This document shows positions 11,853 to 55,664 of a DNA stretch of 64,000 nt, piece by piece. The stretch is from the IMG/VR virus record IMGVR_UViG_3300027659_000031, positions 3,085 to 67,084 of that record, one strand, 5' to 3'. Position 1 is the first letter of the stretch. Each line of letters begins with the position of its first letter. The DNA comes from a virus. The notes under the pieces are model-generated. The model was not told the origin of the DNA. It ran no database searches and saw only the letters and a list, made by a program, of their open reading frames with translations. The position numbers were made by a program, and so were the translations under genes.

Positions 11853-12089
11853 ATGAAAGTTCTTTGTGTAAATGGATATGAAAACGTGCTTACTGAAGGT
11901 GAAGTTTATACTGTAGCTCAAGTAACTACAGGAAATAACTTTCTATTAGAAGAAGTAAATGTTCCAGAAGGATACACATCATTTAACTCTAATAGATTTG
12001 TTCCTCTTATTACAAGTGATGAAGATTCATTAGATGAAACTTTTTTAGAACACAAACCTACAGCAGTATTTTACTGTGTAGATCTTTAA
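11853..12089 (+). CDS. hypothetical protein
   Basis: 78-aa ORF. Confidence 0.55.
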   Translation: MKVLCVNGYENVLTEGEVYTVAQVTTGNNFLLEEVNVPEGYTSFNSNRFVPLITSDEDSLDETFLEHKPTAVFYCVDL

Positions 12090-12094
12090 AATAT

Positions 12095-12479
12095 GGGCCT
12101 GACTGGAATTGATCCGGTTGTTGAGATTGCACCACATGCAGGCGTTTGGTAGAGTCGCCTTAGAAAACTGCAAACAATAACTGACGAAATGTCAACAATG
12201 ACCTTCGATGACCTTATGGCCTTCGTTGGTGCCGATTACGCTGTAGCAGCCTAGTCCGCAAACGGGTGAGTAACCTAGGAACAGAACTACTCCGAGCGCT
12301 CACGATCGACTCGTTAAATAAGGACTGTGGATTAGTTTTCTTGATAGTCATAAAATCAAGTGGTGGAAACGACCATAACGGTCCGCCCCTACTGATCAAA
12401 AGAAATTTAGATCTAAGCATGTGAAACGTTGGTGTTATTGTCGCTATCGGAGACGAGAGTTCGAATCTCTCCAGGTCCA
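12095..12479 (+). ncRNA. ssrA: tmRNA
   Basis: Acceptor stem GGGCCTG/CAGGTCC with G3-U70 Ala determinant, discriminator A, T-arm GAGAG-TTCGAAT-CTCTC; tag ORF 12183-12254 after AATAACT ending YAVAA-stop. Confidence 0.93.
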
Positions 12480-12506
12480 CTAATTTTTAATCAAACCCAC
12501 CCTAAA

Positions 12507-13070
12507 ATGAAAACAGTTTTATTAACAATCTCGCTATTGTGCTCACTATTAGGATATTCCCAAAATGGAGGCCAATTTAATGAAAACAATGTTTTAAAAG
12601 TCGACTACGTAGGTTATAACAATGGTAACCACATATTCAAGATCATTAATAAAATTAATTGTGTCTTGGGTGTTAAGATAGATAAAAACGGTGTTACTTC
12701 TTCTCAAACTATGACAGGTTTACAGGAAACAGTCATTGTAGTAACTGCACCACAAACCCCACAAATTACTATTAAAGCTAAGAGAGAATCAGGGGCTAAT
12801 TGTAGACAAAATCCAGATAATGGTTGGGTAGAATTACAATCTAGTATTGTACTTCCTATTAAGTTTGGAGGCATTACAGCAATTAAAGTTAGTTCTAATC
12901 TAATTAAACTTACTTTTGATGTAGAAGAAGATCACGCACTTAAAAGTTATGGTATAATGGTAAGTCCTGATGGTAAAAATTTTAAGCGGGTTAAAGTTCT
13001 ATTTCCTAATGGAATAGTACCCTATGGTTCAACCAGTAGTAAAAAATATTCCGTACTAGTTAAATTCTAA
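12507..13070 (+). CDS. secreted protein with Bacteroidota LPV-type C-terminal beta-sandwich
   Basis: Signal peptide MKTVLL...GYSQ; VLPIKF...L.F...S.DGKNF resembles the domain preceding T9SS CTDs. Confidence 0.65.
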   Translation: MKTVLLTISLLCSLLGYSQNGGQFNENNVLKVDYVGYNNGNHIFKIINKINCVLGVKIDKNGVTSSQTMTGLQETVIVVTAPQTPQITIKAKRESGANCRQNPDNGWVELQSSIVLPIKFGGITAIKVSSNLIKLTFDVEEDHALKSYGIMVSPDGKNFKRVKVLFPNGIVPYGSTSSKKYSVLVKF

Positions 13071-13073
13071 ATC

Positions 13074-13226
13074 ATGAAATATATCCTTTTATTCATTTTA
13101 TTTTTAGTTTCTTGCACTAAAGAAGAGCAAGTAAAACAAGAAATATCAAATCCGGTACTAATTCAAATTGAAGCCGTACATGTGGATGGAAATATAGAAC
13201 TGTCTCCTATAGTTTTGGTAAGGTAA
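13074..13226 (+). CDS. small lipoprotein (not in ORF track)
   Basis: MKYILLFILFLVSCTKEEQ..., lipobox LVSC, 50 aa. Confidence 0.6.
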   Translation: MKYILLFILFLVSCTKEEQVKQEISNPVLIQIEAVHVDGNIELSPIVLVR

Positions 13227-13341
13227 AGTGCAATTAGTATTGGCAGGATTTTTGATTTATATTTAAATAAATTGCACTCTAAAGATATATTGAAAAGGTA
13301 AAACAATATGTCTTATATTTGTATTAATCAATCAAACAGTT

Positions 13342-13560
13342 ATGATATATATAATTTGGATCATTAGCGTCATTTACTGTATAATTAAAATGTACAGATC
13401 CTACAATAAGAAAGAAATAGATCCAGTTTACGCTACACCAGGTCTAGAGACCCTAGCAATCGTAGTAATGGCGCCAGTTCTAATGGCAGTAGATGCAACT
13501 CTTACATGGGTTCGTAAGTTCAAAGAGTATAGAGAAGAAAAACAAGATAAGATCTTTTAG
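13342..13560 (+). CDS. hypothetical membrane protein
   Basis: Two hydrophobic segments; TATATTTG at 13314-13321. Confidence 0.6.
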   Translation: MIYIIWIISVIYCIIKMYRSYNKKEIDPVYATPGLETLAIVVMAPVLMAVDATLTWVRKFKEYREEKQDKIF

Positions 13561-13565
13561 TTAAT

Positions 13566-13722
13566 TGTCAAGTGGTGAAAGGATATATCCACGGCATACA
13601 CACCCTCTCGTCTCGAGGGCGCTGAATCTGAAAAAGGTAGACAGGATATGGGTTGACCACAAGCGCGCGCATTTTGTCCACTACCGAATCACAGCATGAA
13701 GGTTCGAATCCTTCCTTGACAG
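13566..13722 (+). ncRNA. atypical tRNA-like RNA with ~75-nt structured variable arm
   Basis: Acceptor TGTCAAG/CTTGACA, D-stem GTG/CAC, stem CCCTC/GAGGG with non-canonical loop TCGTCTC, T-arm GAAGG-TTCGAAT-CCTTC. Confidence 0.75.
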
Positions 13723-13761
13723 CATAGTTACCGTTCTTTGACATATAAGGAGAAACAAAAC

Positions 13762-14040
13762 ATGGAAACATTATCATTCGTTTTAGGGATAGCGTTTATA
13801 GTGGTTATAGCTTTGACTGTAGTTGCTACTTATGCTTTCGTTAAAGTAATAAAAATGCAAAAATCATTAGAAGAATTAATGAGAGACACTGATCAAAGAT
13901 TAGCAGAAGTTTGGCAGGGTATATCTGAAGAGAATAGGCAGATTCATCAGAAAGTAGATCTTTTTGAAAAAGATATTTATTCTCAATTAGATTCAAGATT
14001 AGACAAATTAGAAACTAAATTAACAAACAATAAAAAATAA
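13762..14040 (+). CDS. single-TM coiled-coil hypothetical protein
   Basis: METLSF start with AAGGAG upstream; flanked by a 17-nt inverted repeat. Confidence 0.65.
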   Translation: METLSFVLGIAFIVVIALTVVATYAFVKVIKMQKSLEELMRDTDQRLAEVWQGISEENRQIHQKVDLFEKDIYSQLDSRLDKLETKLTNNKK

Positions 14041-14165
14041 ATAAGTTAAAGAGCGGTAACTTAACTTCTGAACACAGTGAAGTCTAATAGGTTGATTGGA
14101 AACTAGGTTAGAAATGCCAATTATAAAAGCAGATGTCCACGCACCCATCTTCTGCTTTCCTAAAT

Positions 14166-14239
14166 AGTCGGGTAGCTTAGTTGGTTAAAGCGTTTGACTG
14201 ATATTCAAAAGACCACAGGTTCGAATCCTGTCCTGACTA
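14166..14239 (+). tRNA. tRNA-Ile(GAT)
   Basis: Cloverleaf; anticodon arm TTTGA-CTGATAT-TCAAA; T-arm ACAGG-TTCGAAT-CCTGT; CCA not encoded. Confidence 0.85.
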
Positions 14240-14297
14240 CAAAGCGGATAAAATGTGCAGTAGCCGCAGAGAATCTAGATCTCACTGCACTCTTATT

Positions 14298-14382
14298 GCC
14301 CCGGTGATGGAACTGGTAGACATGCAAGACTTAAAATCTTGTTCGCTGAAAGCGAGTACGGGTTCGATTCCCGTCTGGGGCA
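14298..14382 (+). tRNA. tRNA-Leu(TAA)
   Basis: Anticodon arm CAAGA-CTTAAAA-TCTTG, long variable arm, acceptor GCCCCGG/CTGGGGC. Confidence 0.92.
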
Positions 14383-14386
14383 CTTA

Positions 14387-14460
14387 GGACCTATAGCTCA
14401 GTTGGTTAGAGCATCTGACTCATAATCAGAGGGTCCCTGGTTCAAGTCCAGGTGGGTCCA
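14387..14460 (+). tRNA. tRNA-CAT (likely Ile2, lysidine-type; elongator Met not excluded)
   Basis: Anticodon arm TCTGA-CTCATAA-TCAGA; GGACC acceptor stem as in bacterial Ile2 tRNAs; no initiator features. Confidence 0.88.
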
Positions 14461-14475
14461 CTAAAAACGAATAAT

Positions 14476-14721
14476 ATGGAAAACAATCCAATTGAAAAAT
14501 GCGTTATCTGTAAAAAAGATACCACTTATTATTTTAATGATCATATTGACATGAGATATGGTTATATTGAAGGAGCTGGTCAATTATGTAAACCTTGTTA
14601 TGATACAGGAATAAATCGTAGTCATATAGCAATTCCAGAAAACATAATATGTAAGACTCCTAATGATCAAGAGTTAGGTGGTAAAGTAAGAGATATCTAT
14701 TGGCAACATAAACAACAATAA
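14476..14721 (+). CDS. hypothetical zinc-finger protein
   Basis: CVIC..YIEGAGQLCKPC. Confidence 0.6.
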   Translation: MENNPIEKCVICKKDTTYYFNDHIDMRYGYIEGAGQLCKPCYDTGINRSHIAIPENIICKTPNDQELGGKVRDIYWQHKQQ

Positions 14722-55571: not shown

Positions 55572-55664
55572 AGTCAGGTGGCGGAATTGGTAGACGCTAA
55601 TTAACAGATAGAGAGAATAAAGGAATGGTTATCTCTCATACAGGTTCGAATCCTGTCCTGACTA
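55572..55664 (+). ncRNA. tRNA-like RNA lacking a canonical anticodon arm
   Basis: AGTCAGG/CCTGACT acceptor, D-arm GCG-GAATTGGTAGA-CGC, T-arm ACAGG-TTCGAAT-CCTGT; central region is an unpaired run plus a GAGAG/CTCTC hairpin. Confidence 0.75.

What the first reader, a model, noticed from the sequence alone, without database searches (positions are those of the whole stretch)
13566..13722. 157-nt giant tRNA-like RNA with a palindrome in the D-loop, non-canonical anticodon loop and long structured variable arm
Acceptor and T arms are perfect. The D-loop carries an inserted GGATATATCC hairpin. The 7-nt loop TCGTCTC lacks U33 and purine 37. The variable region is ~75 nt of nested helices (GCTG/CAGC, GGTAG/CTACC, ACAGGATATG/CGCATTTTGT). 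The preserved pairing suggests a functional RNA rather than decay. Inference: a tRNA mimic, for example a decoy for anticodon nucleases or a ribosome/synthetase ligand.
Basis: partly seen in the sequence, partly recalled or inferred. Interest (0 to 1): 0.72.

Follow-up and report, generated by a model that had tools for sequence, protein, structure and literature searches.

The report
Phage copy of giant-armed tRNA-like RNA
This 157-base phage gene encodes a real, strongly conserved RNA shaped like an aspartate tRNA but unfit for reading codons, copied from a family that Bacteroidota bacteria keep beside an asparagine-type regulator, so it probably carries an amino acid off the ribosome.

Summary
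Window 13566-13722 (+) is a conserved, structured RNA gene. A covariance model finds 88 copies in uncultured freshwater phage contigs (68 distinct). 96.7-98.6% of cells are paired, and 23-24 of 42 pairs show compensatory changes. It has a full tRNA core, a hairpin inserted in the D loop and a 75-nt variable arm. Its 7-nt loop always reads G34-U35-C36-U37 (68/68 phage copies), with C33 in 64/68.

ARAGORN, Rfam 15 and 50,697 deposited phage records do not contain it.

Prompted by earlier notes of this scan, which found this family before on other phage DNA, I tested and confirmed three points.
- The family also lives in Bacteroidota chromosomes: 14/151 genomes of a phylum sample and 101/151 of one order.
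- U1-A72 and G73 are invariant there.
- An AsnC-like regulator lies divergently upstream in 28/45 bacterial loci.

The triplets are GUC (59), UUC (4) and CUC (1), that is, Asp or Glu only.

My best reading (about 0.4) is a tRNA-processed, Asp-chargeable, non-decoding carrier, perhaps for GatCAB amidation to asparagine. The phage copies add self-complementary segments that imply self-pairing. Expression and charging are unproven. Asparagine synthase homologues in most RNA-bearing genomes argue against a sole-route role.

The parts
13566..13722 (+). Whole tRNA-like RNA gene, 157 nt from position 1 to discriminator G73. C74 at 13723 is encoded; CCA is not.
   Evidence: Covariance model R1 scores it 172.1 bits, E 7e-49. 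It lies between ORFs 13342-13560 and about 13773-14040. G73 and C74 are present in 53 of 53 complete 3' ends.
13566..13572 (+). Acceptor stem, 5' strand (pairs with 13715-13721). The U1-A72 pair never varies.
   Evidence: 6 of 7 pairs show compensatory changes and 100% of cells are paired. U1-A72 occurs in 66/66 phage copies and 64/64 bacterial copies.
13573..13602 (+). D arm: U8 and G9; a 3-bp stem GUG (13575-13577) with CAC (13599-13601); A13-A15; the inserted palindromic hairpin GGAUAUAUCC (13581-13590); the G18-G19 equivalents (13593-13594); A26 (13602).
   Evidence: T8, G9, T11, G12, A13-A15, G28 and G29 are invariant columns. The D stem shows one compensatory pair in the second set. The hairpin is absent in L055 and L085 and in the bacterial copies. 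47 of 67 phage variants carry a perfect palindrome of 8 nt or more here.
13603..13619 (+). Anticodon-like arm: stem CCCUC/GAGGG and loop U32 C33 G34 U35 C36 U37 C38 (13608-13614).
   Evidence: The stem covaries at 1 of 5 pairs and at 4 of 5 pairs. Loop tallies over 68 distinct phage copies: UCGUCUC 56, CCGUCUC 6, UUGUCUC 2, UCGUCUA 2, UUGUCUA 2.
13620..13697 (+). Giant variable arm. V1 is GCUG/CAGC (13621-13624 / 13692-13695). V2 is UGA/UCA (13629-13631 / 13689-13691). V3 is GGUAG/CUACC (13636-13640 / 13681-13685). V4 is GGAUA/UGUCC (13644-13648 / 13675-13679). U48 is at 13697.
   Evidence: Helices 4-7 all contain pairs with compensatory changes. V4 has 5 of 5 such pairs. U48 (T132) is invariant.
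13649..13661 (+). Va hairpin, U-GGG-UUGA-CC(A)CA, at the tip of the variable arm. It is the most conserved motif of the arm.
   Evidence: The closing pair covaries as UA/GC/CG. GGGUUGACCAC is present in all but one phage copy (L079b). It is present in 28 of 64 bacterial copies.
13663..13670 (+). Vb, a self-complementary 8-mer GCGCGCGC and a candidate intermolecular pairing site. It is specific to the phage copies.
   Evidence: 67 of 68 distinct phage copies have a perfect Watson-Crick palindrome of 6 nt or more here, and 66 have one of 8 nt or more. There are 15 cores and 8 different central tetranucleotides, all self-complementary. Only 2 of 28 bacterial copies with Va have a palindrome of 8 nt or more.
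13698..13714 (+). T arm GAAGG-UUCGAAU-CCUUC.
   Evidence: 100% of cells are paired and 2 pairs show compensatory changes. GGTTCRANTCC matches 5 sites in the window against 0.11 expected.
13715..13723 (+). Acceptor stem 3' strand, discriminator G73 (13722) and encoded C74 (13723).
   Evidence: Neighbouring true tRNAs in these arrays also end N73-C74 without an encoded CA.
12095..12480 (+). Context: phage tmRNA gene, same strand.
   Evidence: ARAGORN and Rfam RF00023 at 64 bits. A tmRNA lies in 27 of 69 related loci.
14166..14461 (+). Context: tRNA-Ile(gat), tRNA-Leu(taa) and tRNA-Met(cat), same strand.
   Evidence: In all 69 loci the RNA lies on the same strand as the tRNAs of the array.

Best explanation
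Window 13566-13722 encodes a tRNA-shaped RNA that does not read codons. It is the phage copy of an uncatalogued RNA family native to Bacteroidota chromosomes.

Shown here: it has a complete tRNA core built on a class II (tRNA-Leu-like) body. The core comprises a 7-bp acceptor stem, a 3-bp D stem, U8, A14, A15-U48, the G18-G19 equivalents and the T arm. It also has a 75-nt variable arm. It sits in the phage's tRNA/tmRNA array on the tRNA strand and ends G73-C74 like its tRNA neighbours.

Inferred: it is cut out by RNase P and the 3' processing enzymes and receives CCA from the host enzyme. Its loop keeps G34-U35-C36 (with C38 in most copies) and G73, which together form the aspartate identity set. 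It also has a pyrimidine at 37 and often a non-U at 33. The most likely reading is that host AspRS charges it with aspartate while it stays out of translation.

Further inference rests on two invariants. The first pair is always U1-A72, the mark by which the GatCAB amidotransferase accepts Asp-tRNA(Asn). In bacteria an AsnC-like regulator sits divergently beside the gene. The preferred mechanism is therefore a dedicated carrier on which aspartate is amidated to asparagine. In rare UUC/CUC variants the carrier would convert glutamate to glutamine. A phage with an AT-rich, Asn-rich proteome would carry it as an auxiliary metabolic RNA.

The phage copies add two self-complementary segments, one in the D loop and one at the tip of the variable arm. 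These most likely make the RNA pair with another copy of itself.
For: Real RNA with this fold:
- 69 + 19 strong model hits at 92-183 bits.
- 98.6% and 96.7% of cells paired; 23 and 24 of 42 pairs with compensatory changes; 0 of 500 shuffles reach these values.
- Exactly one copy in each of 19 of 19 phage records, including 9 complete genomes of 162-321 kb.

tRNA-type maturation:
- Always on the tRNA strand inside tRNA/tmRNA arrays, 69 of 69 loci.
- G73-C74 in 53 of 53 complete 3' ends, as in the neighbouring tRNAs.
- The tertiary-contact nucleotides are invariant.

Not a decoder:
- U37 in 68/68 phage copies and C33 in 64/68.
- In bacteria, position 37 is U in 57 copies and C in 7, and position 33 is not U in 14 of 64.
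- A canonical tRNA-Asp(gtc) coexists in 6 loci.

Aspartate identity:
- The review PMC9976931 (passages read) names G73, G34, U35, C36 and C38 as the five strong determinants.
- Phage copies: G34-U35-C36 in 68/68, C38 in 64/68, G73 in 66/67.
- The positions that vary in the loop are 32, 33 and, in 4 phage variants, 38.

Amidotransferase link:
- U1-A72 confers GatCAB specificity on Asp-tRNA(Asn) and on tRNA(Gln) (PMC9976931, passages read).
- U1-A72 is present in 66/66 phage and 64/64 bacterial copies.
- Bacterial triplets are GUC 59, UUC 4, CUC 1, that is, only Asp or Glu anticodons.
- GatB is present in 14 of 14 RNA-bearing genomes, against 126 of 151 overall.
- AsnRS scores over its cut-off in 5 of 5 RNA-bearing genomes tested, so these cells need free Asn.

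Asparagine link:
- A divergent regulator lies 44-343 nt upstream in 28 of 45 bacterial loci.
- It carries Pfam AsnC domains in 8 of 8 scanned.
- Its best NCBIfam model is AsnC, at 152-170 bits against 87.5 bits or less for the next models.

Precedent: tRNA-dependent Asn synthesis in bacteria that also have AsnRS (PMC4206432, abstract read).

Phage rationale (weak): Asn makes up 6.6% of residues in 94 ORFs, and the window GC is 32.3%.

Self-pairing: at Vb, 67 of 68 distinct copies are perfect palindromes. The central dinucleotide switches among CG, GC, UA and AU, which a hairpin within one molecule cannot pair. Palindromic pairing is a known RNA homodimer motif (PMC12990946, passages read).
Against: - No expression, CCA addition, charging or amidation has been shown.
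- AsnB-type synthases are common in RNA-bearing genomes. PF00733 hits 12 of 14, and TIGR01536 scores over its cut-off in 3 of 5. The RNA is therefore not the only route to Asn there. RNA presence does not track PF00733 absence: 12/14 against 115/137.
- AsnA is too rare to test (4 of 151, none in the 14).
- In the 4 asnA loci I looked at, no AsnC-sized divergent ORF lies next to asnA (judged by ORF size only). The claim that the RNA replaces asnA at an asnC locus is therefore not confirmed.
- 17 of 45 bacterial loci show no AsnC-like gene within 1.5 kb.
- The regulators score below the AsnC equivalog cut-off of 227 bits.
- C38 is A in 4 phage variants, and one copy has C73.
- Class II AspRS approaches tRNA from the variable-loop side (recalled, not from a call). 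A 75-nt arm might clash with it.
- A long arm plus G73 is also the SerRS identity (PMC5389517, passages read).
- How Asn would leave the carrier is unexplained.
- The hairpin in the phage D loop lies where GatCAB reads the D loop. The review names U20a as an antideterminant.
Confidence: 0.4

Rival explanations
1. Regulatory or scaffold RNA. The tRNA body serves only for processing and stability. The variable arm, and in phages the self-pairing tips, bind a protein or build an RNA assembly. One example would be titrating AspRS, GatCAB or the AsnC-like regulator. Aminoacylation would not matter.
For: - The phage variable arm has invariant single-stranded motifs, such as GGGUUGACCAC, GAAUC and GAAAUAG.
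- Two palindromic sites suggest assemblies.
- The same phages carry other tRNA-bodied RNAs with swapped middles, which fits a 'tRNA as scaffold' theme.
- The regulator next door could equally control a regulatory RNA.
Against: - In bacteria the arm is not conserved. Total RNA length runs 109-212 nt, and the Va motif occurs in only 28 of 64 copies.
- What is conserved everywhere is the acceptor end (U1-A72, G73) and the NUC-Y37 loop. Those are the parts that synthetases and the amidotransferase read.
Confidence: 0.2
2. Decoy or sponge in phage-host conflict. The RNA would mimic tRNA-Asp to absorb or block a host anticodon nuclease or another tRNA-targeting defence.
For: - Phage tRNA arrays are proposed to counter tRNA-cleaving defences. 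Phage tRNAs with altered anticodon loops are reported to escape them (PMC10264068, seen only as a search listing and the start of its abstract).
- The phage clade differs from the bacterial copies in the loop: C33 in 64/68 phage copies, while bacterial copies mostly have U33.
- Y33-G34-U35 is kept. This resembles the site of colicin E5-type nucleases (recalled, not from a call).
Against: - The family is a chromosomal gene of the hosts. It often occurs in tandem arrays and lies beside an amino-acid regulator. A counter-defence origin would not predict that.
- C36, U37, U1-A72 and G73 are also fixed. A nuclease decoy would not need them.
Confidence: 0.13
3. Serine acceptor of the allo-tRNA kind. 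SerRS would charge it through the long arm plus G73, and the product would serve some non-canonical use.
For: A long variable arm and G73 are the elements SerRS needs, and SerRS ignores the anticodon (PMC5389517, passages read). In 9 loci the RNA directly follows tRNA-Ser.
Against: - It does not explain why only GUC, UUC and CUC occur, nor why U1-A72 is fixed.
- The acceptor/T geometry is 7/5, not 8/4 or 9/3.
- The D stem has U11-A24. C11-G24 is recalled as a SerRS element (recalled, not from a call).
Confidence: 0.07
4. An unusual but working tRNA-Asp that decodes GAY codons on the ribosome. The giant arm would point into solvent, as helix 2 of tmRNA does.
For: - The GUC triplet sits in a 7-nt loop on a 5-bp stem within a full L-shape core.
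- tmRNA shows that a large appendage at the variable-arm position can enter the ribosome (recalled, not from a call).
Against: - Position 37 is a pyrimidine in 132 of 132 distinct copies.
- Position 33 is not U in 64/68 phage copies and 14/64 bacterial copies.
- Canonical tRNA-Asp genes coexist in 6 phage loci.
- With U1-A72 the RNA could be amidated, which would put Asn at Asp codons.
Confidence: 0.05

Closest known systems
tRNA-Asn as cofactor of tRNA-dependent asparagine synthesis (non-discriminating AspRS plus GatCAB; Thermus, Deinococcus, Bdellovibrio; PMC4206432 abstract, PMC9976931 passages)
   Same: Both have a U1-A72 first pair, a G73 discriminator and a G34-U35 anticodon start. In both cases the host encodes GatB and AsnRS together. 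In the known system an amino acid is made while attached to a tRNA-shaped carrier.
   Different: This RNA has C36 (the Asp triplet), not U36. It has a pyrimidine at 37, a 75-nt variable arm and a class II body. It could not deliver Asn to the ribosome without error. No charging or amidation has been shown.
Class II elongator tRNAs, especially bacterial and phage tRNA-Leu (within Rfam RF00005)
   Same: Both have a 3-bp D stem with the UGGUG(G/A)AA...GG.A.ACAC pattern. The tRNA-Leu(tag) genes of related phages show this pattern almost letter for letter. Both also have the A15-U48 pair, a helix at the variable position and a 7/5 acceptor/T geometry.
   Different: The arm is 75 nt instead of about 13-21 nt. 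A hairpin is inserted in the D loop. The discriminator is G73, not A73. The loop is non-canonical. The RF00005 model does not score it even at E <= 10.
tmRNA tRNA-like domain with helix 2 (Rfam RF00023)
   Same: Both have an acceptor/T-arm minihelix carrying a large extra structure where a class II variable arm would be (recalled comparison, not from a call). The RNA is encoded next to a tmRNA in 27 of 69 loci.
   Different: This RNA keeps its own anticodon-like arm. It has no conserved reading frame: the AUG-GGU-UGA in the window is not conserved. It has no G3-U70 pair. The tmRNA model matches only 12095-12482.
allo-tRNAs and other non-canonical long-arm tRNAs (PMC5389517)
   Same: Both have a long variable arm and G73. 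Both occur in bacteria and their phages, with anticodons that do not fit the expected identity.
   Different: allo-tRNAs have 8/4 or 9/3 acceptor/T geometry and normal decoding loops. This RNA is 7/5 with Y37.
RNA homodimers held by palindromic base-pairing (HYER1/HYER5 domain 3; review PMC12990946)
   Same: Both have a short perfect palindrome at a fixed structural site. The sequence of the palindrome varies between relatives while its self-complementarity is kept.
   Different: This RNA has a tRNA body and two such sites. Dimer formation is not shown here, only inferred from sequence.
Anticodon-less tRNA-bodied RNAs of the same phages (second class seen here; earlier notes compare them with T4 species 1/2 and T5 tRNA-like RNAs)
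   Same: Both have a tRNA-Leu-like D arm, a near-identical acceptor (AGUCAGG against UGUCAGG) and hairpins inserted in the D loop. Both reside in tRNA arrays.
   Different: Those RNAs have hypervariable middles, A1-U72 and A73, and occur in several copies per genome. This RNA is single-copy in phages and has a fixed loop and arm.

Membership tests
Canonical tRNA (Rfam RF00005) | 7-bp acceptor stem and 5-bp T stem with a GTTCRANYC-type loop | tested here: met
   100% of cells are paired in both helices, with compensatory changes in 6 and 2 pairs.
Canonical tRNA (Rfam RF00005) | Core tertiary nucleotides U8, A14, R15-Y48, G18-G19, T54-A58 | tested here: met
   The invariant columns include T8, A14, A15, G28/G29 (which correspond to 18/19), T132 (which corresponds to 48) and the T loop.
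Canonical tRNA (Rfam RF00005) | 7-nt anticodon loop with U33 and a purine at 37 | tested here: not met
   The window has C33 and U37. U37 occurs in 68/68 phage copies and C33 in 64/68. Y37 occurs in 64/64 bacterial copies.
Canonical tRNA (Rfam RF00005) | Recognised by the family model or a tRNA finder | tested here: not met
   ARAGORN does not call it. cmscan gives no RF00005 hit at the gathering score or at E <= 10.
Class II (long-arm) tRNA architecture | 3-bp D stem and a base-paired variable arm between the anticodon and T stems | tested here: met
   The arm is about 75 nt, far beyond the usual length.
tRNA-Asp identity (AspRS substrate) | G73, G34, U35, C36, C38 (PMC9976931) | tested here: met
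   All five are present in the window. In the phage family G34-U35-C36 occurs in 68/68, C38 in 64/68 and G73 in 66/67.
tRNA-Asp identity (AspRS substrate) | G1-C72 and G2-C71, conserved in bacterial tRNA-Asp (PMC9976931) | tested here: not met
   The first pair is U1-A72 in every copy. G2-C71 is present in the window and in 45 of 50 copies.
tRNA-Asp identity (AspRS substrate) | Actual aspartylation | not testable with these tools
   This needs an aminoacylation assay.
GatCAB substrate (Asp-tRNA(Asn)-like) | U1-A72 first pair (PMC9976931) | tested here: met
   66/66 phage copies and 64/64 bacterial copies.
GatCAB substrate (Asp-tRNA(Asn)-like) | No D-loop antideterminant (U20a) | tested here: inconclusive
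   The phage D loop carries an inserted hairpin, and standard numbering of positions 20/20a cannot be assigned.
tmRNA (RF00023) | Tag reading frame, pseudoknots, G3-U70 | tested here: not met
   The model matches only 12095-12482. The pair at 3-70 is U3-A70. No conserved ORF exists in the arm.
allo-tRNA / tRNA-Ser-like | Long arm plus G73 (met), with 8/4 or 9/3 acceptor/T geometry | tested here: not met
   The geometry is 7/5. The long arm and G73 are present (PMC5389517).
Uncatalogued Bacteroidota/phage giant-armed tRNA-like family (this scan's family; model R1) | tRNA core, U1-A72, G73, an N-U-C-Y37 loop and a large variable arm | tested here: met
   The window scores 172.1 bits. Bacterial members score 44-101 bits. 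The features are tallied.

The most novel reading that the evidence does not exclude
A dedicated, non-decoding carrier RNA on which aspartate is turned into asparagine, and in rare UUC/CUC variants glutamate into glutamine. AspRS (or GluRS) would charge it and GatCAB would amidate it. In Bacteroidota an AsnC-like regulator would switch it on. Jumbo phages would have captured it as an auxiliary metabolic RNA gene. The phage form would have evolved two self-complementary tips so that it works as a symmetric dimer, possibly matching the dimeric class II synthetase.
Probability: 0.3. Interest if true: 0.9.

Novelty: new variant of a known kind. Interest (0 to 1): 0.8.

Why it matters
If the leading reading is right, tRNA-dependent amino-acid synthesis would have its own specialised RNA cofactor, separate from the translating tRNA pool. 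Until now this process has been known only on real, decoding tRNAs. The cofactor would be under amino-acid-responsive transcriptional control and widespread in a major bacterial phylum: 101 of 151 genomes of one order carry it, in arrays of up to six copies.

It would also be the first auxiliary metabolic gene of a phage that is an RNA of this kind.

Whatever its function, this is a large structured RNA family with very strong covariation that is missing from Rfam. It has an invariant loop that breaks two near-universal tRNA rules (U33 and purine 37). In phages it has a sequence signature of RNA self-pairing that is easy to test.

The predictions can be checked directly with standard assays: charging, transamidation, native gels, and gene deletion in a culturable Bacteroidota member.

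Tried and rejected
- Known families. ARAGORN and Rfam at the gathering score and at E <= 10 gave nothing at 13566-13722. Rfam on 14 bacterial loci at E <= 0.01 gave only one true tRNA.
- Deposited phages. blastn of the 157 nt against 50,697 records found no match. The 1.2-kb query matched only the true tRNAs.
- Fold energy of the single sequence is not significant.
- Metatranscriptomes. I laid the contigs of 4 RNA runs on 12000-14600. The tmRNA and tRNA parts are covered. The candidate has only depth 2.1 in one bin of one run. This is no evidence for or against expression.
- RNAcofold. The dimer is 10.5-17.5 kcal/mol below two monomers in 10 of 10 sequences folded. The Vb palindrome pairs between molecules in 8 of the 10. 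In L034 the D-loop palindrome pairs instead, and L079b has no Vb. Any hairpin can be domain-swapped in such a calculation, so I do not count this as evidence.
- Whole-molecule palindrome counts against shuffles are not striking, because 8-nt palindromes are common by chance (about 0.6 per shuffled sequence). Only the analysis at a fixed site is informative.
- Spliced-tRNA idea. Removing the arm leaves the same non-canonical loop, so I rejected it.
- Mini-ORF AUG-GGU-UGA in the arm. The AUG is not conserved, so I rejected it.
- Pseudoknot between the loop GUCU and GAGAY, GGAU or AGAC stretches. I inspected these by eye. The partners either vary without compensation or belong to helix V4, so I rejected it.
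- Phage-encoded partners. I found no class IIb synthetase (PF00152; 0 of 18 records). I found no CCA-adding enzyme (PF01743; 0 of 19). I found no anticodon-binding OB domain (PF01336; 0 of 19). Pfam on 20 window proteins showed nothing related to tRNA.
- Complementarity between the RNA and Asn synthases. AsnA is too rare to test, and PF00733 shows no difference.
- asnA loci of 4 genomes. No AsnC-sized divergent ORF lies beside asnA (judged by ORF size only).
- Genes downstream of the bacterial RNA are not conserved.
- The first genome contigs motif scan found nothing, because bacterial copies differ in that motif.
- 6 of the 24 new loci were chance matches in coding DNA. 63 of the 68 loci were chance matches or true tRNAs.
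- Literature. Searches found no description of this family. The catalogue PMC10690425 (passages read) lists a candidate, 'DNAVirus_1850', found 27 times and overlapping a tRNA-Asp call once. That candidate might be this family.
Full report
**1. What is in the window.**

One search shows a 157-nt stretch at 13566-13722 (+) with the following parts.
- A perfect 7-bp acceptor stem, UGUCAAG/CUUGACA.
- U8 and G9.
- A 3-bp D stem: G10-U11-G12 with C-A-C at 13599-13601.
- A D loop holding AAA, the palindrome GGAUAUAUCC and a GG doublet.
- A26.
- A 5-bp stem, CCCUC/GAGGG, closing the loop UCGUCUC.
- About 75 nt of nested helices.
- A standard T arm, discriminator G and an encoded C74.

It lies between two small ORFs in a stretch richer in G+C than its 32% GC surroundings. 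It is 1.1 kb downstream of a tmRNA gene and 0.45 kb upstream of tRNA-Ile, tRNA-Leu and tRNA-Met, all on the same strand. ARAGORN and Rfam 15 do not recognise it, even at E <= 10. The fold energy of the single sequence is unremarkable (z = -0.88).

**2. It is a conserved, structured RNA.**

The window is an IMG/VR viral contig of 67 kb, about 35% complete. Four motif scans of IMG/VR gave 68 loci. A covariance model built from 26 distinct copies finds one strong match, at 120-183 bits, in each of 69 sources.

A further scan used a pattern from the 3' arm and T arm. It does not include the loop or the Va motif. It added 18 real loci carrying 19 copies. Six further loci were chance matches in coding DNA.

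| Set | Distinct sequences | Cells paired | Pairs with changes on both sides | Shuffles reaching this | Slid controls |
|---|---|---|---|---|---|
| First set | 52 | 98.6% | 23 of 42 | 0 of 500 | 37-50% paired |
| Independent set | 16 | 96.7% | 24 of 42 | 0 of 500 | 40-53% paired |

In the independent set, 4 of the 5 pairs of the anticodon-like stem change on both sides.

Only GGAUA/UGUCC is supported there. The remainder forms the hairpin U-GGG-UUGA-CC(A)CA and a self-complementary 8-mer.

The nucleotides that build the tRNA elbow are invariant. These are U8, A14, A15 with U48, the GG doublet and the T loop.

The D arm resembles that of the tRNA-Leu(tag) genes of related phages almost letter for letter. 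The body is therefore that of a class II tRNA.

**3. Context in phages.**

In all 69 loci the RNA lies on the same strand as the tRNAs of a tRNA/tmRNA array. Often it is only a few bases after tRNA-Ser, tRNA-Leu or tRNA-Arg. All 53 complete 3' ends read G73-C74, followed by any base. The true tRNAs of these arrays end in the same way.

There is exactly one copy in each of 19 records, including nine complete genomes of 162-321 kb. I found none in 50,697 deposited phage genomes. DNA of the window's phage is held by freshwater metagenome runs from many studies.

These phages encode no class IIb synthetase, no CCA-adding enzyme and no anticodon-binding OB domain. Maturation and any charging would therefore depend on host enzymes.

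**4. The loop.**

Over 68 distinct phage copies the loop is UCGUCUC (56), CCGUCUC (6), UUGUCUC (2), UCGUCUA (2) or UUGUCUA (2). G34-U35-C36-U37 never varies, and only positions 32, 33 and 38 do.

This invariance is not an artefact of how the loci were found. The 32 loci fetched with the Va motif alone and the 18 fetched with the 3' pattern all keep it.

A purine at 37 and U33 are near-universal in decoding tRNAs (established knowledge). Canonical tRNA-Asp(gtc) genes coexist with the RNA in six loci. The RNA is therefore very unlikely to be a decoder.

A review of tRNA identity (PMC9976931, passages read) names G73, G34, U35, C36 and C38 as the five strong aspartate determinants. The window has all five. 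The same review states that U1-A72 is what lets the GatCAB amidotransferase accept Asp-tRNA(Asn) and Glu-tRNA(Gln), while G1-C72 blocks it. U1-A72 is present in 66 of 66 complete phage copies.

**5. Self-complementary tips, seen before I consulted earlier notes.**

At the site after the Va hairpin, 67 of 68 distinct phage copies carry a perfect Watson-Crick palindrome of 6 nt or more, and 66 carry one of 8 nt or more. There are 15 different cores. The eight different central tetranucleotides are CCGG, UGCA, AGCU, UCGA, GUAC, GCGC, CAUG and CGCG, and all are self-complementary.

Two adjacent nucleotides cannot pair with each other within one hairpin. Covariation of the central dinucleotide (CG, GC, UA, AU) therefore cannot come from an intramolecular stem. 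It points to a duplex between two molecules, or less likely to a constraint at the DNA level. G-U pairs at the outer positions of some variants (L047, L044, L091) argue for selection at the RNA level.

The D-loop insert is a perfect palindrome of 8 nt or more in 47 of 67 copies. It is an ordinary hairpin in others and is absent in L055 and L085. Palindromic pairing is a recognised RNA homodimer motif (PMC12990946, passages read).

**6. Earlier notes of this scan, and my tests of them.**

After forming the reading above, I searched the scan's notes. The same family had been reported on other phage DNA at least eight times. The notes made three claims.
- (a) It also exists in Bacteroidota chromosomes.
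- (b) There it sits beside an AsnC regulator.
- (c) It may be a carrier for asparagine synthesis.

Two notes also described self-pairing tips. I tested these claims.

*Claim (a), confirmed.* My first motif scan of 185,579 species genomes had found nothing. A pattern from the Va-to-T-arm region found a chromosomal copy in a Saprospiraceae MAG. It scores 90 bits, and its neighbours are a TPR protein, an enolase-family protein, GH113 and panC. The model then hit 14 of 151 genomes sampled across that genome's phylum. It hit 101 of 151 genomes of one order, with tandem arrays of up to six copies. Rfam has no family for these either.

*Features of the 64 distinct bacterial copies.*

| Feature | Tally |
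|---|---|
| U1-A72 | 64/64 |
| G73 | 64/64 |
| Positions 35-36 | U-C in all |
| Position 37 | U 57, C 7 |
| Position 33 | U 50, G 7, C 6, A 1 |
| Triplet | GUC 59, UUC 4, CUC 1 |

The only anticodons seen are those of aspartate and glutamate, the two amino acids that GatCAB amidates on tRNA.

The bacterial copies lack the D-loop hairpin. Only 28 of 64 keep the Va motif, and only 2 of those 28 have a palindrome of 8 nt or more after it. The self-pairing tips, the D-loop hairpin and the predominance of C33 are therefore features of the phage clade. C33 also occurs in 6 of the 64 bacterial copies.

*Claim (b), confirmed.* In 28 of 45 bacterial loci a gene of about 155 codons lies 44-343 nt upstream of the RNA, always on the opposite strand. 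Eight of eight scanned carry the Pfam AsnC/Lrp domains. Four of four match the NCBIfam AsnC equivalog best. They score 152-170 bits over the full length, against 87.5 bits or less for LrpA, Lrp and the others, but below the curated cut-off of 227. Downstream genes are not conserved.

*Claim (c), partly tested.*
- Consistent: GatB is present in 14 of 14 RNA-bearing genomes of the phylum sample, against 126 of 151 overall. AsnRS scores over its cut-off in 5 of 5 tested. These bacteria therefore need free asparagine and own the amidotransferase.
- Neutral or against: AsnA is too rare to test, with 4 of 151 genomes and none of the 14. PF00733 occurs in 12 of the 14, against 115 of the other 137. 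TIGR01536 scores over its cut-off in 3 of 5. The RNA is therefore not the only possible route to asparagine.
- Not confirmed: in four asnA loci I saw no AsnC-sized divergent ORF. I could not confirm the note that the RNA sits where asnA otherwise sits.

**7. Most likely mechanism.**

*Shown:* a tRNA-shaped, conserved, single-copy phage gene in a tRNA array. It has bacterial homologues beside an AsnC-like regulator. The first pair, the discriminator and N-U-C-Y37 are invariant.

*Inferred:* tRNA-type processing and CCA addition; charging with aspartate by host AspRS; exclusion from decoding.

*Further inferred:* amidation by GatCAB to asparagine on the carrier. tRNA-dependent asparagine synthesis in bacteria that also have AsnRS is the known precedent (PMC4206432, abstract read).

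For the phage, a proteome with 6.6% Asn offers a motive, but this is weak support.

The phage-specific palindromes suggest that the phage RNA acts as a homodimer. AspRS is a homodimer (established knowledge), but any link between the two is speculation.

I put about 0.4 on the charged, non-decoding carrier reading as a whole, and about 0.3 on the full asparagine-platform version.

**8. Rivals.**

| Rival | Confidence | Main weakness |
|---|---|---|
| Regulatory or scaffold RNA whose tRNA body serves only for processing | 0.2 | Bacteria conserve the ends and the loop, not the arm |
| Serine acceptor via long arm plus G73 (PMC5389517) | 0.07 | Does not explain the Asp/Glu-only triplets or U1-A72 |
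| Genuine decoder | 0.05 | Y37 in all 132 distinct copies |

**9. Novelty.**

No Rfam family and no deposited phage annotation covers this RNA. Five literature searches found no description. A 2023 catalogue of viral structured-RNA candidates may list it without interpretation.

Relative to known biology it is a new variant of known kinds, namely class II tRNA bodies and tRNA-dependent amidation. It is not a categorically new system. If its function is confirmed it would be a notable addition.

Noticed in passing
window 55572-55664; also L041 4212-4392, 4534-4678, 4977-5099, 11993-12116; L050 (five copies); L009, L006: A second class of tRNA-bodied RNAs occurs in the same phages. They have a constant acceptor AGUCAGG/CCUGACU plus A73, a tRNA-Leu-like D arm and a T arm ACAGGUUCGAAUCCUGU. 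Their middles are unrelated, 40-120 nt long, and lack a normal anticodon arm. Some carry a long hairpin inserted in the D loop. The 3' motif is found in 8 of 19 records, with up to 11 copies (G006, G013). ARAGORN calls the window copy tRNA-Leu(cag), 94 nt. Earlier scan notes describe the same class.
   Followed up: partly
window 14166-14240: The true tRNA-Ile(gat) has exactly the T arm and 3' acceptor sequence of the anticodon-less class (GGTTCGAATCCTGTCCTGACT). Those RNAs therefore look like chimeras of a tRNA-Ile back half and a tRNA-Leu D arm.
   Followed up: no
window 14106-14161: A 56-nt piece of the intergenic region upstream of tRNA-Ile is matched, with 1-4 mismatches, by contigs of all 4 metatranscriptome runs laid. 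Most of these contigs are high-depth (depth up to 307), and their flanks are unlike the window. No Rfam family matches (best E 0.07). It may be a conserved module of an abundant RNA.
   Followed up: partly
window 13724-13750 and the same position in many loci (L004, L006, L012, L013, L015, L016): The sequence just after the RNA, GTTACCGTTCTTTGACATATAAGGAGA, is conserved across many related phages. It weakly resembles the start of the Rfam DUF2693 RNA model (14 bits, E 2.8).
   Followed up: no
L079 3961-4107 and 4115-4271: One phage contig carries two adjacent paralogues. One is full-length but has C73 and a UUGUCUC loop. The other is shorter. In it the Va hairpin and the palindrome are replaced by a plain AU-rich hairpin, and the loop is UUGUCUA.
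   Followed up: no
tRNA arrays of loci L002-L069: The phage tRNAs mostly encode N73-C74 but not the full CCA. None of the 19 phage records encodes a CCA-adding enzyme.
   Followed up: partly
unnamed Bacteroidota genomes G238, G317, G286, G205 (loci L194, L201, L193): Bacterial copies form head-to-tail arrays of 4-6 near-identical genes spaced about 190 nt apart. No AsnC-like gene lies within the 1.5 kb fetched upstream of the arrays in L193, L194 and L201.
   Followed up: no
phylum sample of 151 Bacteroidota genomes: By eye, the genomes without GatB (for example G032, G037, G042, G047, G049, G067, G071, G075, G107, G111, G115, G127, G132, G135) are largely the ones carrying a distinct PF00733 hit type of about 560 aa. 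This suggests two alternative asparagine/glutamine strategies within the phylum. I did not quantify it.
   Followed up: no
L165 1992-2750: In one bacterial locus the gene downstream of the RNA is a TrmB-type (PF02390) methyltransferase. It is not conserved elsewhere.
   Followed up: no
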